DNA of 64,000 nucleotides. Source: Escherichia coli (GTDB lineage: Bacteria > Pseudomonadota > Gammaproteobacteria > Enterobacterales > Enterobacteriaceae). Under the pieces are notes generated by a model. It saw only the letters and a list, made by a program, of their open reading frames with translations. It was not told the DNA's origin and made no database searches. How positions within the stretch are numbered: the stretch's first letter is position 1; each line of letters starts with the position of its first letter. The position numbers and the translations under genes were made by a program. The stretch is taken from the NCBI RefSeq assembly GCF_030013205.1, contig NZ_CP122648.1. One strand, given 5' to 3'. Of this stretch, positions 2,866 to 33,541 are shown one piece after another.

Positions 2866-3234
2866 ATGGACATGCATTCAGGAACCTTTAATCCACAGGA
2901 TTTCGCCTGGCAGGGCTTAACGCTGACACCCGCAGCCGCTGTCCACATACGCGAGCTGGTGGCAAAGCAGCCGGGTATGGTCGGCGTGCGCTTAGGCGTG
3001 AAGCAAACGGGCTGCGCGGGCTTTGGCTATGTGCTCGACAGTGTTAGCGAGCCGGACAAAGACGATCTGCTGTTTGAACACGACGGCGCGAAGCTGTTTG
3101 TCCCGCTGCAAGCGATGCCGTTTATTGATGGCACGGAAGTCGATTTCGTTCGTGAAGGACTTAATCAGATATTCAAATTTCACAACCCTAAAGCCCAGAA
3201 TGAATGTGGCTGTGGCGAAAGCTTTGGGGTATAG
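2866..3234 (+). CDS. sufA: Fe-S cluster assembly A-type carrier SufA
   Basis: 122-aa ORF, C-terminal CGCGESF motif, first gene of the suf cluster. Confidence 0.95.
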
Positions 3235-3242
3235 GCGGTACT

Positions 3243-4730
3243 ATGTCTCGTAATACTGAAGCAACTGACGATGTCAAAACCTGGACCGGCGGCCCACTGA
3301 ATTATAAAGAAGGATTCTTCACCCAGTTAGCCACCGATGAGCTGGCAAAGGGGATAAACGAAGAGGTGGTGCGCGCAATTTCGGCGAAGCGTAATGAGCC
3401 GGAGTGGATGCTGGAGTTTCGTCTCAACGCCTATCGCGCATGGCTGGAGATGGAAGAACCGCACTGGTTGAAAGCGCACTACGACAAGCTGAATTATCAG
3501 GATTACAGCTACTACTCAGCACCATCGTGCGGTAATTGTGACGACAACTGCGCGTCTGAACCCGGCGTGGTGCAGCAAACTGGCGCGAACGCCTTTTTAA
3601 GTAAAGAGGTGGAGGCGGCGTTTGAGCAGTTGGGCGTTCCCGTGCGGGAAGGCAAAGAGGTGGCGGTGGATGCCATTTTCGACTCTGTTTCGGTTGCCAC
3701 CACTTATCGCGAAAAACTGGCGGAGCAGGGAATTATTTTCTGTTCCTTTGGCGAGGCGATCCACGATCACCCGGAACTGGTGCGTAAATATCTCGGCACC
3801 GTGGTGCCGGGGAATGACAACTTCTTTGCCGCACTTAATGCGGCGGTAGCCTCTGACGGTACGTTTATTTATGTGCCTAAAGGCGTGCGCTGCCCGATGG
3901 AACTTTCCACCTATTTTCGTATTAACGCGGAAAAAACCGGGCAGTTTGAGCGCACCATTCTGGTGGCCGACGAAGACAGCTACGTTAGCTACATTGAAGG
4001 CTGTTCCGCTCCGGTGCGTGACAGCTATCAGTTACACGCGGCGGTGGTGGAAGTCATCATCCATAAAAACGCCGAGGTGAAATATTCCACGGTACAAAAC
4101 TGGTTCCCTGGCGATAACAACACCGGCGGTATTCTCAACTTCGTCACCAAGCGTGCTTTGTGCGAAGGCGAAAACAGCAAAATGTCATGGACGCAATCAG
4201 AAACCGGGTCAGCGATTACGTGGAAATATCCCAGCTGTATTTTGCGCGGCGATAACTCCATTGGTGAGTTTTACTCAGTGGCGCTGACCAGCGGTCATCA
4301 GCAAGCGGATACCGGCACCAAGATGATCCACATCGGTAAAAACACTAAATCGACCATTATCTCGAAAGGGATCTCTGCCGGACATAGTCAGAACAGTTAT
4401 CGCGGCTTAGTGAAAATCATGCCGACGGCAACCAATGCGCGCAATTTCACTCAGTGCGACTCAATGCTGATTGGCGCTAATTGTGGGGCGCATACCTTCC
4501 CGTATGTCGAATGTCGCAATAACAGCGCACAACTGGAGCACGAGGCAACGACATCACGTATTGGTGAAGATCAACTGTTTTACTGCCTGCAACGCGGGAT
4601 CAGCGAAGAAGACGCCATCTCGATGATTGTTAACGGTTTCTGCAAAGACGTGTTCTCAGAACTGCCGCTGGAATTTGCCGTTGAAGCACAAAAACTCCTC
4701 GCCATCAGTCTTGAACACAGCGTCGGATAA
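3243..4730 (+). CDS. sufB: Fe-S cluster assembly scaffold SufB
   Basis: ORF 3204..4730; internal start [10 protein letters not shown] gives the 495-aa SufB. Confidence 0.95.
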
Positions 4731-29965: not shown

Positions 29966-31135
29966 ATGAAAATTAACTATCCGTTGCTGGCGCTGGCGAT
30001 TGGTGCGTTTGGTATTGGGACAACGGAGTTCTCGCCAATGGGCTTATTGCCCGTCATTGCGCGCGGTGTGGATGTCTCGATTCCCGCTGCCGGAATGTTA
30101 ATCAGTGCCTATGCAGTTGGCGTAATGGTTGGCGCGCCGCTGATGACGCTTCTACTTTCTCATCGTGCTCGCCGCAGTGCGTTGATTTTCCTAATGGCGA
30201 TTTTCACGCTCGGCAACGTACTTTCCGCCATCGCGCCGGATTATATGACCCTGATGCTTTCTCGCATTTTGACCAGCCTGAATCACGGAGCATTTTTTGG
30301 TTTGGGTTCAGTCGTGGCCGCAAGCGTGGTGCCAAAACATAAACAGGCCAGCGCAGTTGCCACTATGTTTATGGGGTTAACCCTGGCAAATATCGGTGGC
30401 GTGCCGGCGGCGACCTGGTTGGGTGAAACCATCGGCTGGCGGATGTCATTTCTGGCAACGGCGGTGCTGGGAGTGATTTCAATGGTAAGTCTGTTCTTCT
30501 CATTACCTAAAGGTGGTGCAGGGGCACGACCTGAAGTGAAAAAAGAGCTGGCGGTATTAATGCGTCCGCAGGTGCTGTCTGCATTGCTGACGACGGTACT
30601 GGGAGCTGGTGCAATGTTTACCCTCTACACCTATATCTCTCCGGTACTGCAAAGTATTACCCACGCAACGCCGGTGTTCGTCACAGCAATGCTGGTGCTG
30701 ATTGGTGTCGGATTCTCTATCGGTAACTATCTCGGCGGCAAACTGGCAGATCGTTCAGTTAACGGCACGTTGAAAGGCTTTTTGTTGCTGCTGATGGTGA
30801 TTATGCTGGCAATCCCGTTCCTGGCCCGCAATGAGTTCGGCGCAGCTATTAGCATGGTGGTGTGGGGCGCTGCAACCTTTGCGGTCGTACCGCCGTTACA
30901 GATGCGCGTGATGCGTGTCGCCAGTGAAGCGCCAGGTCTGTCTTCATCAGTCAATATTGGTGCCTTTAATCTTGGAAATGCGCTGGGAGCAGCTGCTGGT
31001 GGTGCGGTAATTTCCGCTGGGCTGGGATACAGCTTTGTGCCGGTGATGGGGGCGATTGTCGCGGGACTGGCATTATTGCTGGTGTTTATGTCAGCCAGAA
31101 AACAACCTGAAACAGTTTGCGTTGCCAACAGCTAA
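29966..31135 (+). CDS. ydhP: MFS transporter YdhP
   Basis: 389 aa polytopic MFS protein. Confidence 0.9.
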   Translation: MKINYPLLALAIGAFGIGTTEFSPMGLLPVIARGVDVSIPAAGMLISAYAVGVMVGAPLMTLLLSHRARRSALIFLMAIFTLGNVLSAIAPDYMTLMLSRILTSLNHGAFFGLGSVVAASVVPKHKQASAVATMFMGLTLANIGGVPAATWLGETIGWRMSFLATAVLGVISMVSLFFSLPKGGAGARPEVKKELAVLMRPQVLSALLTTVLGAGAMFTLYTYISPVLQSITHATPVFVTAMLVLIGVGFSIGNYLGGKLADRSVNGTLKGFLLLLMVIMLAIPFLARNEFGAAISMVVWGAATFAVVPPLQMRVMRVASEAPGLSSSVNIGAFNLGNALGAAAGGAVISAGLGYSFVPVMGAIVAGLALLLVFMSARKQPETVCVANS

Positions 31136-31145
31136 TTAAACAAAA

Positions 31146-31169
31146 ACGCAGAAGGATAACCTTCTGCGT
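31146..31169. terminator. intrinsic terminator between convergent ydhP and sodB
   Basis: ACGCAGAAGG-ATAA-CCTTCTGCGT hairpin; T-rich on the minus strand (sodB direction). Confidence 0.7.
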
Positions 31170-31184
31170 TACAGTTGCTGACAA

Positions 31185-31265
31185 CGTGCGATTTATCTTG
31201 CCGGATGCGGTGTTAACGACTCATCCGTGTTGGCATGGTAAGCGAAGCGCATCAGGCAATGCTGC
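31185..31265. repeat. REP-like (palindromic unit) sequence downstream of sodB
   Basis: GCCGGATGCGG...CGCATCAGGC imperfect palindrome resembling REP/BIME elements. Confidence 0.35.
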
Positions 31266-31280
31266 ATTTGCCATCAGTTA

Positions 31281-31862
31281 TTATGCAGCGAGATTTTTCG
31301 CTACGAATTCCCAGTTCACCAGCGCCCAGAAGTGCTCCAGATAGCCAGGACGTGCATTGCGATAGTCGATGTAATAAGCGTGTTCCCAGACATCAACGGT
31401 CAGCAGCGGAGTCGCATCGGTGGTCAGTGGAGTACCCGCGTTAGAGGTTGAAACGATAGCCAGTTTGCCATCGCTGTTTTTCACCAGCCAGGTCCAGCCA
31501 GAACCAAAGTTTTTGATCGCTGCATCAGTAAACTGAGCTTTGAAATCGGCAAAGCTGCCAAAAGATGCGGCGATAGCTTCAGCGACTTTTCCAGTCGGTT
31601 CGCCACCCGCGTTCGGTGCCAGGCAGTTCCAGTAGAAAGTATGGTTCCAGACCTGAGCTGCGTTGTTGAATACGCCACCTTCAGAGCTGCGAATAATCTC
31701 TTCCAGTGATTTACCTTCAAACGCGGTACCTTTAATCAGGTTGTTCAGGTTAGTCACATAAGTCTGATGATGCTTGCCGTAGTGATACTCGATGGTTTCC
31801 GCAGAAATGTGCGGTGCCAGAGCATCTTTAGCATATGGTAGTGCAGGTAATTCGAATGACAT
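31281..31862 (-). CDS. sodB: Fe superoxide dismutase
   Basis: 193 aa [36 protein letters not shown]... Confidence 0.98.
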
Positions 31863-31989
31863 TGCTACTCTCCTTTATTATTAATTTGCATACGTACAAT
31901 AGCCTTATTGTGCGTATGGATAGGGTAGCAAATTAAAAGGTGAGACAAAAGATGAACTTACCCTGTTGCCGTAACAACAGGGTAAAGTT

Positions 31990-32817
31990 TTAGCGAAGTG
32001 TTTTTGGGGTCATTACCCGGCGAGCGCCAACATAGTGGCGCTGCCAGTAGTCTTCACTGAGAGAAGTGATTTGAATTTCTTGGCCCGTGCGCGGTGACTG
32101 AATAAATTTGCCGTTGCCGACATACACGCCGACATGATCGGCTGTACCGCGTCCCTGAGTACGGAAGAAGACCAGGTCGCCGTTTTTCAGTTCACTACGT
32201 TCGATAGGTGCTGCATCACGCAGGTGATACATTTCATTCGCCGTACGCGGAATACGAATTTTCACCAAATCTTTATAAGCGTAATAAACCAGGCCGCTGC
32301 AATCAAAACCGGTACGCGGTGAGCTGCCACCCCAACGATATGGCTTACCAATTTGCTGCATCAGTTTATTCATTGCCACTTTTGTGGCTTTTTGCACCTT
32401 CGCTTTGTGTGCGTCGGCAAGGGTTCCTGACGCGGCATTTTTGACTTTCACACAATGCGATTTATAGCCCTTACGTTTGGTACACTTTTCGGTAAAGCTG
32501 GCTGAGGCCGTTTTATTGACGACGTGTTTGCTGCGAGTTTTGGCGTTTTTAGAAGCGGTAATGGAAGATTTTTTAACGGAAGAAGCGGTTTTGCTTTTGG
32601 TCGTACTTTTACTGGCGGCTTTTTTCGCTGTTTTCTGGCTGGCTTTCTGGGTCTTTTTGGTGGTTGCCGTGCTTTTCTTTTTATCTGCTTTTTTGGTGAT
32701 ATGAGTGGTAGCAGAACTCTCCCTGGCTTGCTTTGAAGCATGGGCCATAGGCGTTAAAGGCAGGGTGGTAAAAAGTAAAGCACAGAGCGTGATCGAAATA
32801 CGGTTTATCCGCGCCAC
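31990..32817 (-). CDS. mepH: NlpC/P60-family peptidoglycan endopeptidase MepH (YdhO)
   Basis: 275-aa ORF (true start may be a few codons downstream); signal peptide, Lys/Thr/Ser-rich linker, C-terminal NlpC/P60 domain. Confidence 0.88.
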   Translation of the reverse strand: MARINRISITLCALLFTTLPLTPMAHASKQARESSATTHITKKADKKKSTATTKKTQKASQKTAKKAASKSTTKSKTASSVKKSSITASKNAKTRSKHVVNKTASASFTEKCTKRKGYKSHCVKVKNAASGTLADAHKAKVQKATKVAMNKLMQQIGKPYRWGGSSPRTGFDCSGLVYYAYKDLVKIRIPRTANEMYHLRDAAPIERSELKNGDLVFFRTQGRGTADHVGVYVGNGKFIQSPRTGQEIQITSLSEDYWQRHYVGARRVMTPKTLR

Positions 32818-33513: not shown

Positions 33514-33541
33514 CTGACGGATGCGAACGGGCATCCGTCAG
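33514..33541. terminator. intrinsic terminator between convergent grxD and lhr
   Basis: CTGACGGATGC-GAACGG-GCATCCGTCAG hairpin followed by TCCTTTCTCT. Confidence 0.7.

What the first reader, a model, noticed from the sequence alone, without database searches (positions are those of the whole stretch)
31185..31265. REP-like palindromic element downstream of sodB
Imperfect palindromic sequence resembling REP/BIME units lies between the sodB stop and the ydhP/sodB terminator hairpin. Such elements can stabilise upstream mRNA.
Basis: inference. Interest (0 to 1): 0.12.

Follow-up and report, generated by a model that had tools for sequence, protein, structure and literature searches.

The report
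Decayed REP pair in sodB 3'UTR
This is an ordinary, already catalogued E. coli repeat: two worn-down copies of the common "REP" palindrome in the untranslated tail of the sodB messenger RNA, probably with little or no function left in this strain.

Summary
Window 31198-31259 holds two inverted, tail-to-tail REP units. A Y-type unit lies on the + strand (31199-31227) and a Z1-type unit on the - strand (31257..31229). Each matches the published REP consensus at 25 of 29 positions; the best match in 100 shuffles of the window was 22 and 20. The pair sits in the sodB 3'UTR, 21-23 nt after a tandem TAA-TAA stop and 27 nt before the conserved bidirectional terminator hairpin (31145-31170).

It is the window strain's allele of a known K-12 element, listed for sodB as REPv128ab. 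Citrobacter, Salmonella arizonae and Enterobacter have the terminator 5-10 nt after the stop and no REP, so the pair is an Escherichia-lineage insertion.

The locus has three allele classes in 5,426 E. coli genomes:
- short, 2 units: about 3,679 genomes (the window's exact version in 170)
- long, 4 units: 1,350 genomes
- K-12-type canonical pair: 356 genomes

One strain has the REP-targeting IS621 inserted in the long allele.

In the window allele both units have lost the GTAG motif and their own hairpins. Only a modest head-to-head pairing remains (-21 kcal/mol, z -1.8). A stabilising role for sodB mRNA is possible but unsupported and probably redundant with the terminator. Known, ordinary, low interest.

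The parts
31281..31862 (-). sodB coding sequence (Fe superoxide dismutase). The stop TAA is at 31283..31281.
   Evidence: ORF list. The 100%-identical E. coli records annotate sodB here.
31278..31280 (-). Second in-frame TAA, giving a tandem stop TAA-TAA.
   Evidence: Read directly from the sequence.
31260..31277 (-). Unique 5' flank of the Escherichia-specific insert in the sodB 3'UTR (CTGATGGCAAATGCAGCA).
   Evidence: Present in E. coli and E. whittamii and absent from Citrobacter, Salmonella and Enterobacter. Single copy per genome.
31229..31257 (-). Z1-type REP unit, degenerate (GCCTGATGCGCTTCGCTTACCATGCCAAC). On the opposite strand its GTAG foot reads GTTG.
   Evidence: 25/29 to the Z1 consensus against a shuffle maximum of 20. 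Its own hairpin is only -2.9 kcal/mol, z +0.2.
31199..31227 (+). Y-type REP unit, degenerate (TGCCGGATGCGGTGTTAACGACTCATCCG). The consensus tail GCCTAC is replaced by TGTTGG.
   Evidence: 25/29 to the Y consensus against a shuffle maximum of 22, and 26/35 over the full length. Its own hairpin as sodB-sense RNA is -7.5 kcal/mol, z -1.0.
31198..31259 (.). The REP doublet as a whole: a tail-to-tail Y'-Z1' pair with no linker. The outer head-to-head stem pairs 31198-31209 with 31248-31259.
   Evidence: Inverted repeat I2. RNA minimum-free-energy fold -21.1 kcal/mol, z -1.81.
31171..31197 (-). Unique spacer between the REP doublet and the terminator (AGATAAATCGCACGTTGTCAGCAACTGT), part of the Escherichia-specific insert.
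31136..31170 (-). Conserved bidirectional terminator: an 11-bp stem with a 4-nt loop at 31145-31170, and a U-tract 31144..31136 on the sodB strand. The inferred sodB mRNA 3' end is near 31142 and the inferred ydhP 3' end near 31175.
   Evidence: K-12 Term-seq places a 3' end at 1736114(+) (PMC7815308 suppl.). The hairpin is listed as the sodB:ydhP bidirectional terminator, -17.8 kcal/mol. The same hairpin lies 5-10 nt after the sodB stop in outgroups.
29966..31135 (+). ydhP coding sequence (MFS transporter), convergent with sodB.

Best explanation
The element is the window strain's allele of the known E. coli REP element between sodB and ydhP (REPv128ab in K-12). It is a doublet of two inverted REP units, Y-type on the + strand and Z1-type on the - strand, joined tail to tail. 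In other words, it is the remnant of a BIME/REPIN-type mobile repeat.

Shown:
- The repeat entered the Escherichia lineage between the sodB stop codon and an older, conserved bidirectional terminator. It lengthened the stop-to-terminator distance from 5-10 nt to 110 nt.
- The locus has since been remodelled into at least three allele classes.
- In K-12, sodB transcripts run through the REPs and end at the terminator U-tract.
- ydhP transcripts end at the same hairpin, before reaching the REPs. The doublet is therefore an internal part of the sodB 3'UTR only.
- In the window allele both units have lost the GTAG/CTAC foot and their own stems.

Inferred:
- This copy is no longer a substrate for the REP transposase TnpA(REP) or a target for IS621, and is decaying neutrally.
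- Its only remaining structure is an imperfect long hairpin made by pairing the two unit heads.
- That hairpin can at most act as a weak second barrier to 3'-to-5' exonucleases behind the terminator hairpin. Any effect on SodB expression is probably small.
For: Identity:
- 25/29 matches to the Y and Z1 consensus against shuffle maxima of 22 and 20.
- Positional alignment with the canonical K-12 BIME.
- The K-12 element is named REPv128ab for sodB (PMC10100675).
- IS621 is inserted at ATCAGGC-CT-AC of the orthologous Z1 unit in strain K99B. This is the published natural IS621 target within REPs (PMC11208160).

Insertion in Escherichia:
- 36 of 93 outgroup loci carry the homologous hairpin within 20 nt of the sodB stop and have no REP.
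- Only E. whittamii has a REP pair at the same place.

Remodelling:
- Long allele in 1,350 genomes, K-12 type in 356, short type in about 3,679. Sequences.

Transcript architecture:
- Term-seq 3' end at K-12 1736114(+) in the U-tract, with no end called in the REPs (PMC7815308 suppl.).
- The hairpin is catalogued as the sodB:ydhP bidirectional terminator with the REP columns blank.

Decay:
- GTAG is changed to GTTG in one unit and lost in the other.
- Unit hairpins fold at -2.9 (z +0.2) and -7.5 (z -1.0) kcal/mol, against -12.8 (z -3.6) and -16.2 (z -4.1) for the K-12 units.
- E. coli TnpA(REP) tolerates no GTAG mutation (PMC8266576).
- The best IS621 target match in the window is 8/11, with core CA instead of CT.
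- Substitutions among short alleles break outer-stem pairs without compensation. There are no double-sided changes in 21 pairs.
Against: - No expression or half-life data exist for this allele, so 'little function' is an inference.
- The short allele is the commonest in E. coli (about 68%) and keeps an 11-13-bp head-to-head stem. Retention of some structure could reflect selection.
- The covariation test had only 5 distinct sequences and is uninformative either way.
- REP-bearing convergent gene pairs are on average more highly expressed than pairs without REPs, whatever the degree of REP conservation (2026 preprint).
- sodB appears among REP-carrying genes in the tables of a study on fluoride/ATP-dependent REP-mRNA stabilisation.
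Confidence: 0.8

Rival explanations
1. A functional mRNA-stabilising REP. The folded doublet would block 3'-to-5' exonucleases (PNPase, RNase II) and so prolong the life of the upstream sodB message.
For: - This is the classical role of REPs. REP325 protects yjdM mRNA by more than 160-fold (2026 preprint).
- REP-containing transcripts are stabilised when ATP-dependent decay is impaired, and sodB is listed with REPv128ab in that study's tables.
- The doublet lies inside the sodB 3'UTR.
- A composite hairpin of -21 kcal/mol remains.
Against: - The 3' end of the mRNA is already a strong terminator hairpin (11 bp, -17.8 kcal/mol).
- No REP-associated 3' ends were called in K-12 Term-seq, even with the canonical allele.
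- The unit hairpins are lost in this allele, and the fold z-score is only -1.8.
- Genome-wide, genes with terminal REPs do not have longer half-lives.
- Outgroups do without any REP here.
Confidence: 0.15
2. A transcription terminator or insulator between the convergent genes. The REPs would stop or pause RNA polymerase (partly Rho-dependent) so that ydhP and sodB transcription do not collide.
For: - Some REPs act as partial Rho-dependent terminators, and 78 REPs lie within bidirectional terminators of convergent pairs (2026 preprint).
- On the + strand the hairpin is not followed by a T-tract, so some ydhP read-through is conceivable.
Against: - The mapped bidirectional terminator for sodB:ydhP is the non-REP hairpin, and the REP columns are blank for that entry.
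- sodB transcripts read through the REPs to the hairpin.
- ydhP transcripts end before the REPs.
- The window units are structurally degraded.
Confidence: 0.04
3. A translation down-regulator. A REP hairpin close to the stop codon would stall the terminating ribosome and trigger tmRNA tagging.
For: The mechanism has been described for REPs that begin within about 15 nt of a stop codon (Liang, Rudd & Deutscher, Mol Cell 2015). This is from my own knowledge; the paper is not held.
Against: - The outer stem starts 21 nt and the REP head 23 nt after the first stop codon, and there is a second in-frame TAA.
- The hairpin is weak.
Confidence: 0.02
4. A DNA-level protein-binding site (IHF, DNA gyrase or Pol I), as described for BIME-1 and BIME-2.
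For: BIMEs bind IHF (the L linker of BIME-1), gyrase and Pol I (reviewed in PMC3333891). The doublet has the y + z1 composition of BIME-1.
Against: - There is no linker at all between the two units.
- No IHF consensus WATCAANNNNTTR occurs anywhere in the intergenic region on either strand.
- It is a single degenerate pair, not the tandem Y-Z2 arrays cut by gyrase.
Confidence: 0.03
5. A chance palindrome unrelated to REPs.
For: As a fold, the 70-nt segment is only marginally better than shuffles.
Against: - Two adjacent 25/29 matches to two different REP consensus sequences in inverted orientation, against shuffle maxima of 22 and 20.
- Orthology with a canonical BIME.
- IS621 targets the locus.
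Confidence: 0.01

Closest known systems
REPv128ab, the REP element annotated for sodB in E. coli K-12 (named in PMC10100675)
   Same: Same locus, same flanks, same orientation and the same two-unit (Y + Z1) tail-to-tail layout. The alignment is collinear outside the units.
   Different: The K-12 copy is canonical. It has GTAG/CTAC feet, a 13-nt linker (ATCGATGATCCGC) and two stable hairpins (-12.8 and -16.2 kcal/mol). The window copy has no linker, has mutated feet (GTTG, or lost), has 4 mismatches per unit and no stable unit hairpins. The intergenic region is 145 bp here against 161 bp in K-12.
BIME-1 (Y + Z1 with long L linker and IHF site) and atypical BIMEs (Bachellier 1994; Ton-Hoang 2012, PMC3333891)
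   Same: Single-copy pair of y and z1 units in inverted orientation at the 3' end of a transcription unit.
   Different: No L linker and no IHF consensus. By the published classification it would count as an atypical or degenerate BIME.
REPINs (REP doublets forming long hairpins, mobilised by RAYT transposases; Bertels & Rainey 2011, PMC3116915)
   Same: Two inverted REPs whose complementary parts can pair into one long imperfect hairpin.
   Different: The recognition features needed by the E. coli RAYT/TnpA(REP), namely GTAG and the bulged stem, are lost. This copy is most likely immobile. That is an inference from PMC8266576.
REP325 (yjdM-yjdN), the model 12-unit Y/Z2 BIME-2 that acts as terminator and mRNA stabiliser (2026 preprint)
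   Same: The REP units lie in the 3'UTR of an upstream gene.
   Different: REP325 is a tandem array of perfect units between co-directional genes, with no separate intrinsic terminator. Here there are two decayed units followed by a strong dedicated terminator between convergent genes.

Membership tests
E. coli REP / palindromic unit family (Y, Z1, Z2) | Sequence similarity to a REP unit consensus | tested here: met
   Y 25/29 at 31199-31227(+) and Z1 25/29 at 31257..31229(-). Shuffle maxima were 22 and 20. Consensus sequences taken from PMC11208160.
E. coli REP / palindromic unit family (Y, Z1, Z2) | Extragenic location, typically in a 3'UTR or between convergent genes | tested here: met
   Lies in the 145-bp ydhP-sodB convergent intergenic region. 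About 60% of E. coli REPs lie between convergent genes.
E. coli REP / palindromic unit family (Y, Z1, Z2) | Conserved GTAG (CTAC) tetranucleotide at the foot of the palindrome | tested here: not met
   The Z1' foot reads GTTG. The Y' consensus tail GCCTAC is replaced by TGTTGG. The K-12 and long alleles keep GTAG.
E. coli REP / palindromic unit family (Y, Z1, Z2) | Each unit is an imperfect palindrome that folds into a stable bulged stem-loop | tested here: not met
   The window units fold at -2.9 kcal/mol (z +0.2) and -7.5 (z -1.0). The K-12 units fold at -12.8 (z -3.6) and -16.2 (z -4.1).
E. coli REP / palindromic unit family (Y, Z1, Z2) | Positional orthology with an annotated REP element | tested here: met
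   Collinear alignment with the K-12 locus, whose element is named REPv128ab. The local NC_000913.3 copy carries no REP features at all, so this could not be read from the annotation.
E. coli REP / palindromic unit family (Y, Z1, Z2) | Member of a dispersed high-copy family within the genome | tested here: inconclusive
   The degenerate 70-nt query finds a median of only 2 places per genome at E<=1e-3, and up to 7. Twenty-two canonical REPs were harvested from about 106 kb of K-12 (two 50-kb chunks plus the 6-kb sodB locus) for comparison. The window itself has no other consensus-type REP.
BIME (REP + inverted REP mosaic) | Two REPs in alternating orientation | tested here: met
   Y' on the + strand, Z1' on the - strand, tails adjacent.
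BIME-1 | Y and Z1 separated by the conserved long L linker, often with an IHF site | tested here: not met
   The units abut or overlap at 31228-31233. No WATCAANNNNTTR on either strand of the intergenic region.
BIME-2 | Tandem copies of Y and Z2 with an S linker | tested here: not met
   No Z2-type unit in the window allele; the Z2 consensus best match is background. A decayed Z2-type unit exists only in the long allele and in E. whittamii.
Targets of REP-specific insertion sequences (IS621) | Target ATCAGGCCTAC with a CT core | tested here: not met
   The window's best match is ACCATGCCAAC, 8/11 with core CA. The orthologous Z1 of the long allele meets the target and carries IS621 in strain K99B.
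TnpA(REP)/RAYT substrates (REPtron, REPIN) | Strand-specific binding and cleavage by TnpA(REP), which requires GTAG and the bulged stem | not testable with these tools
   Predicted negative, because GTAG is mutated and the stems are lost. The E. coli enzyme tolerates no GTAG mutation (PMC8266576).
Rfam RNA families | Match to any curated RNA family in 31136-31280 | tested here: not met
   cmscan of 30900-32100 at E<=10 gave no credible hit in the intergenic region.

The most novel reading that the evidence does not exclude
The three allele classes of this REP locus (2 decayed units, 2 canonical units, 4 units) might give E. coli lineages heritably different sodB mRNA stability or SodB levels. 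On that reading the decayed doublet's head-to-head hairpin would have been co-opted as a 3'UTR regulatory structure, for example an RNase III/E or RhlB-PNPase checkpoint, rather than being neutral debris.
Probability: 0.06. Interest if true: 0.35.

Novelty: already known. Interest (0 to 1): 0.07.

Why it matters
It matters little. REP/BIME elements in E. coli 3'UTRs have been known since the 1980s. This locus is already named in K-12, and strain-to-strain BIME polymorphism and IS targeting of REPs are published phenomena. The only modest value is as a clear worked example of a REP life cycle at one site: insertion in Escherichia, expansion to four units, deletion derivatives, point-mutational decay and IS621 capture. 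It also warns that 'REP-like' sequence does not imply a functional REP hairpin.

Tried and rejected
1. Rfam scan of 30900-32100 at E<=10. Nothing in the intergenic region; only a sub-threshold sodB 5'UTR thermometer hit and snoRNA noise.
2. Reading REP annotation from NC_000913.3. The local copy has no REP features even at REP325, so their absence is uninformative.
3. Using other REPs in the window as internal references. There are none of consensus type, so I used published consensus sequences and K-12 chunks instead.
4. blastn of the 70-nt element against all E. coli genomes to show multicopy status. It found a median of only 2 places per genome, because the copy is too degenerate and short for the database size.
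5. Covariation on the composite hairpin. With 5 distinct sequences there were no double-sided changes, so the result is uninformative.
6. I first swapped the labels Z1 and Z2. I corrected this from PMC8266576 and PMC3333891: Z1 is the short 29-nt unit and Z2 the 37-nt unit.
7. Literature on a sodB 3'UTR sRNA or terminator. No papers found.
8. Liang/Rudd/Deutscher 2015 could not be retrieved. Its 15-nt rule is cited from memory.
9. Supplement of Dar & Sorek 2018 is not held.
10. I considered a target-site-duplication reading of the 13-nt direct repeat bracketing the intergenic region. I rejected it as a probable chance match (11/13, with one copy inside the ydhP coding sequence).
11. The exact order of events among the long, K-12 and short alleles could not be resolved. 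A simple crossover model leaves 4-5 unexplained differences.

Full report
**Context.** The window is E. coli; the 401 nt around the finding are 100% identical to strain CFSAN018748 and are present in 5,425 of 5,426 complete genomes. ydhP (+, 29966-31135) and sodB (-, 31281-31862) converge on a 145-bp intergenic region. Next to ydhP there is a perfect 11-bp hairpin (31145-31170). It is followed by TTTTTGTTT only on the - strand, so it is the intrinsic terminator of sodB.

**Observation check.** The REP head motif GCCKGATGCG occurs exactly twice in the 64 kb, at 31200-31209 (+) and 31257..31248 (-). I compared the region with the three REP consensus sequences that Durrant et al. 2024 used to annotate E. 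coli REPs (PMC11208160).
- The + strand 31199-31227 matches the Y unit at 25/29.
- The - strand 31257..31229 matches the short Z1 unit at 25/29.
- In 100 dinucleotide-preserving shuffles of the window, the best matches were 22 and 20.
- The next-best real sites score 19-20.

The outer stem starts 21 nt after the stop, and the doublet ends 27 nt before the hairpin.

**What it is.** The locus aligns collinearly with K-12 MG1655. There the same position holds a canonical pair:
- Y: GCCGGATGCGGCGAGTGCCTTATCCGACCTAC
- a 13-nt linker
- Z1: GTAGGCCTGATAAGCGTAGCGCTTCAGGCA

A published table lists this K-12 element for sodB as REPv128ab (PMC10100675). The element is therefore already known. The local RefSeq copy of K-12 carries no REP features at all, so the annotation could not show this. 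Independent support comes from strain K99B. An IS621 sits exactly in the orthologous Z1 unit, with junctions ATCAGGC-CT|IS|CT-ACGCGG. ATCAGGCCTAC with a CT core is the published natural REP target of IS621.

**Origin.** One scan of species-representative genomes for the sodB C-terminus returned 96 loci. In 36 of the 93 loci with enough downstream sequence, the homologous hairpin (GCNGAAGG arm) begins within 20 nt of the stop; these include Citrobacter, Enterobacter, Salmonella enterica subsp. arizonae and Leclercia. In the examples I read, it begins 5-10 nt after the stop and no REP is present. Only Escherichia whittamii has a REP pair (a Z2-type unit plus the same Y' unit) at the same place, with the same unique flanks. 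The roughly 110-nt segment 31171-31280, including the doublet, is therefore an Escherichia-lineage insertion between the stop codon and an older terminator.

**Polymorphism.** Three allele classes exist in the 5,426 genomes.

| Allele | Layout | Genomes | Source |
|---|---|---|---|
| Long, 4 units | Y'-Z2'-Y-Z1 (BL21 type) | 1,350 | |
| K-12 type | canonical Y-Z1 | 356, many of them laboratory K-12 strains | |
| Short, 2 units | Y'-Z1' | about 3,679 (5,029 with full coverage minus 1,350) | |

The window's exact 70-nt version occurs in 170 genomes. It differs from the commonest short allele at four positions (window vs majority: G/A, G/C, A/C, T/C); at the first three it matches the Y' unit of the long (BL21) allele, while at the fourth the majority short and long alleles share C and the window alone has T. 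About five genomes have large interruptions of the region. Variable unit number at a locus and recombination between units are published properties of BIMEs (PMC3333891). I could not order the events unambiguously.

**State of this copy.** Published defining features of E. coli REPs are a GTAG foot and a bulged stem-loop. The E. coli TnpA(REP) tolerates no GTAG mutation (PMC8266576).
- In the window the Z1' foot reads GTTG.
- The Y' tail GCCTAC is replaced by TGTTGG.
- Folded alone as sodB-sense RNA, the units give -2.9 kcal/mol (z +0.2) and -7.5 (z -1.0).
- The K-12 units give -12.8 (z -3.6) and -16.2 (z -4.1).
- What remains is pairing of the two heads (31198-31209 with 31248-31259), which closes an imperfect long hairpin of -21.1 kcal/mol, z -1.81.
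- The best IS621 target match is 8/11, with a CA core.
- Among five distinct short alleles there are no compensatory changes, and two lineages break an outer-stem G-C pair. The sample is too small to be decisive.

**How it works.** In K-12, Term-seq places a strong 3' end at 1736114(+). This is the third U after the hairpin, equivalent to about 31142 here. It was seen in two conditions, and no end was called within the REPs (PMC7815308 supplement). The same hairpin is catalogued as a bidirectional terminator for sodB:ydhP, detected in log and stationary phase (33-nt overlap, -17.8 kcal/mol). The REP columns for that entry are blank (2026 preprint, Table 16). So sodB transcripts read through the REPs and end at the hairpin. 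ydhP transcripts end at the hairpin (about 31175) before reaching the REPs.

The doublet is thus an internal passenger of the sodB 3'UTR. Its plausible activity is a secondary barrier to 3' exonucleases once the terminator hairpin is breached. With the unit hairpins gone, I infer that this effect is weak. Genome-wide data in the 2026 preprint show no longer half-lives for REP-bearing genes, although convergent pairs with REPs are more highly expressed.

I consider the following roles unlikely:
- Translation control by stop-proximal REPs, because the distance (21-23 nt) exceeds the roughly 15-nt rule. That rule is from Liang et al. 2015 and is cited from my own knowledge.
- IHF binding, because there is no linker and no IHF consensus.
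- Termination of ydhP, because its transcripts end upstream of the REPs.

**Comparison and verdict.** The element is a degenerate member of the E. coli REP/BIME family and the allele of a named K-12 element. It meets the sequence, location, orientation and orthology criteria. It fails the GTAG and unit-hairpin criteria, so it is best described as a decayed remnant rather than an active REP. It is neither a BIME-1 (no L linker) nor a BIME-2 (no Z2 unit). Nothing here is new in kind. Interest is low. The stabilisation remark remains an untested and, for this allele, weakened possibility.

Noticed in passing
window 33514-33541: Perfect palindrome CTGACGGATGCGAACGGGCATCCGTCAG. It matches the 3'-end sequence given for grxD in K-12 Term-seq data. 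The grxD element is called REPt127 in the literature and is cited as a REP that doubles as an intrinsic terminator.
   Followed up: partly
window 31833-31937 (-): Sub-threshold Rfam hit to RF02775, the SodB 5'UTR thermometer: 31.4 bits against a gathering score of 98, E 0.0014. It covers the sodB 5'UTR and start codon. It may be a distant relative or simply conserved coding-start sequence.
   Followed up: no
window 31122-31134 and 31268-31280: A 13-nt direct repeat (TTGCCAACAGCTA / TTGCCATCAGTTA, 85%) brackets the whole ydhP-sodB intergenic region. One copy is the last codons of ydhP and the other abuts the sodB stop. Probably chance.
   Followed up: no
L004 (E. coli K99B) 3137-4649: IS621 (annotated as IS110-like element IS621 family) is inserted precisely in the Z1 REP of the long allele, between ydhP and sodB, with CT on both junctions. 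This natural insertion agrees with the published bridge-RNA target ATCAGGCCTAC.
   Followed up: yes
L091 and L103 (Kluyvera ascorbata), downstream of sodB: About 50 nt separate the sodB stop from the conserved hairpin, against 5-10 nt in other outgroups. There is no E. coli-type REP match. This may be a different small insertion.
   Followed up: no
whole window (1-64000): Apart from the sodB doublet, no consensus-type REP head or unit was found in 64 kb. From the K-12 average of 355 annotated elements in 4.64 Mb, about 5 REP loci would be expected. The divergent REPt127-type palindrome shows that such scans miss atypical REPs.
   Followed up: partly
L001, L106, L107 (NC_000913.3): The local RefSeq copy of K-12 MG1655 lists no repeat_region/REP features, even at the 12-unit REP325 between yjdM and yjdN. 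A missing REP annotation in this collection therefore says nothing.
   Followed up: yes
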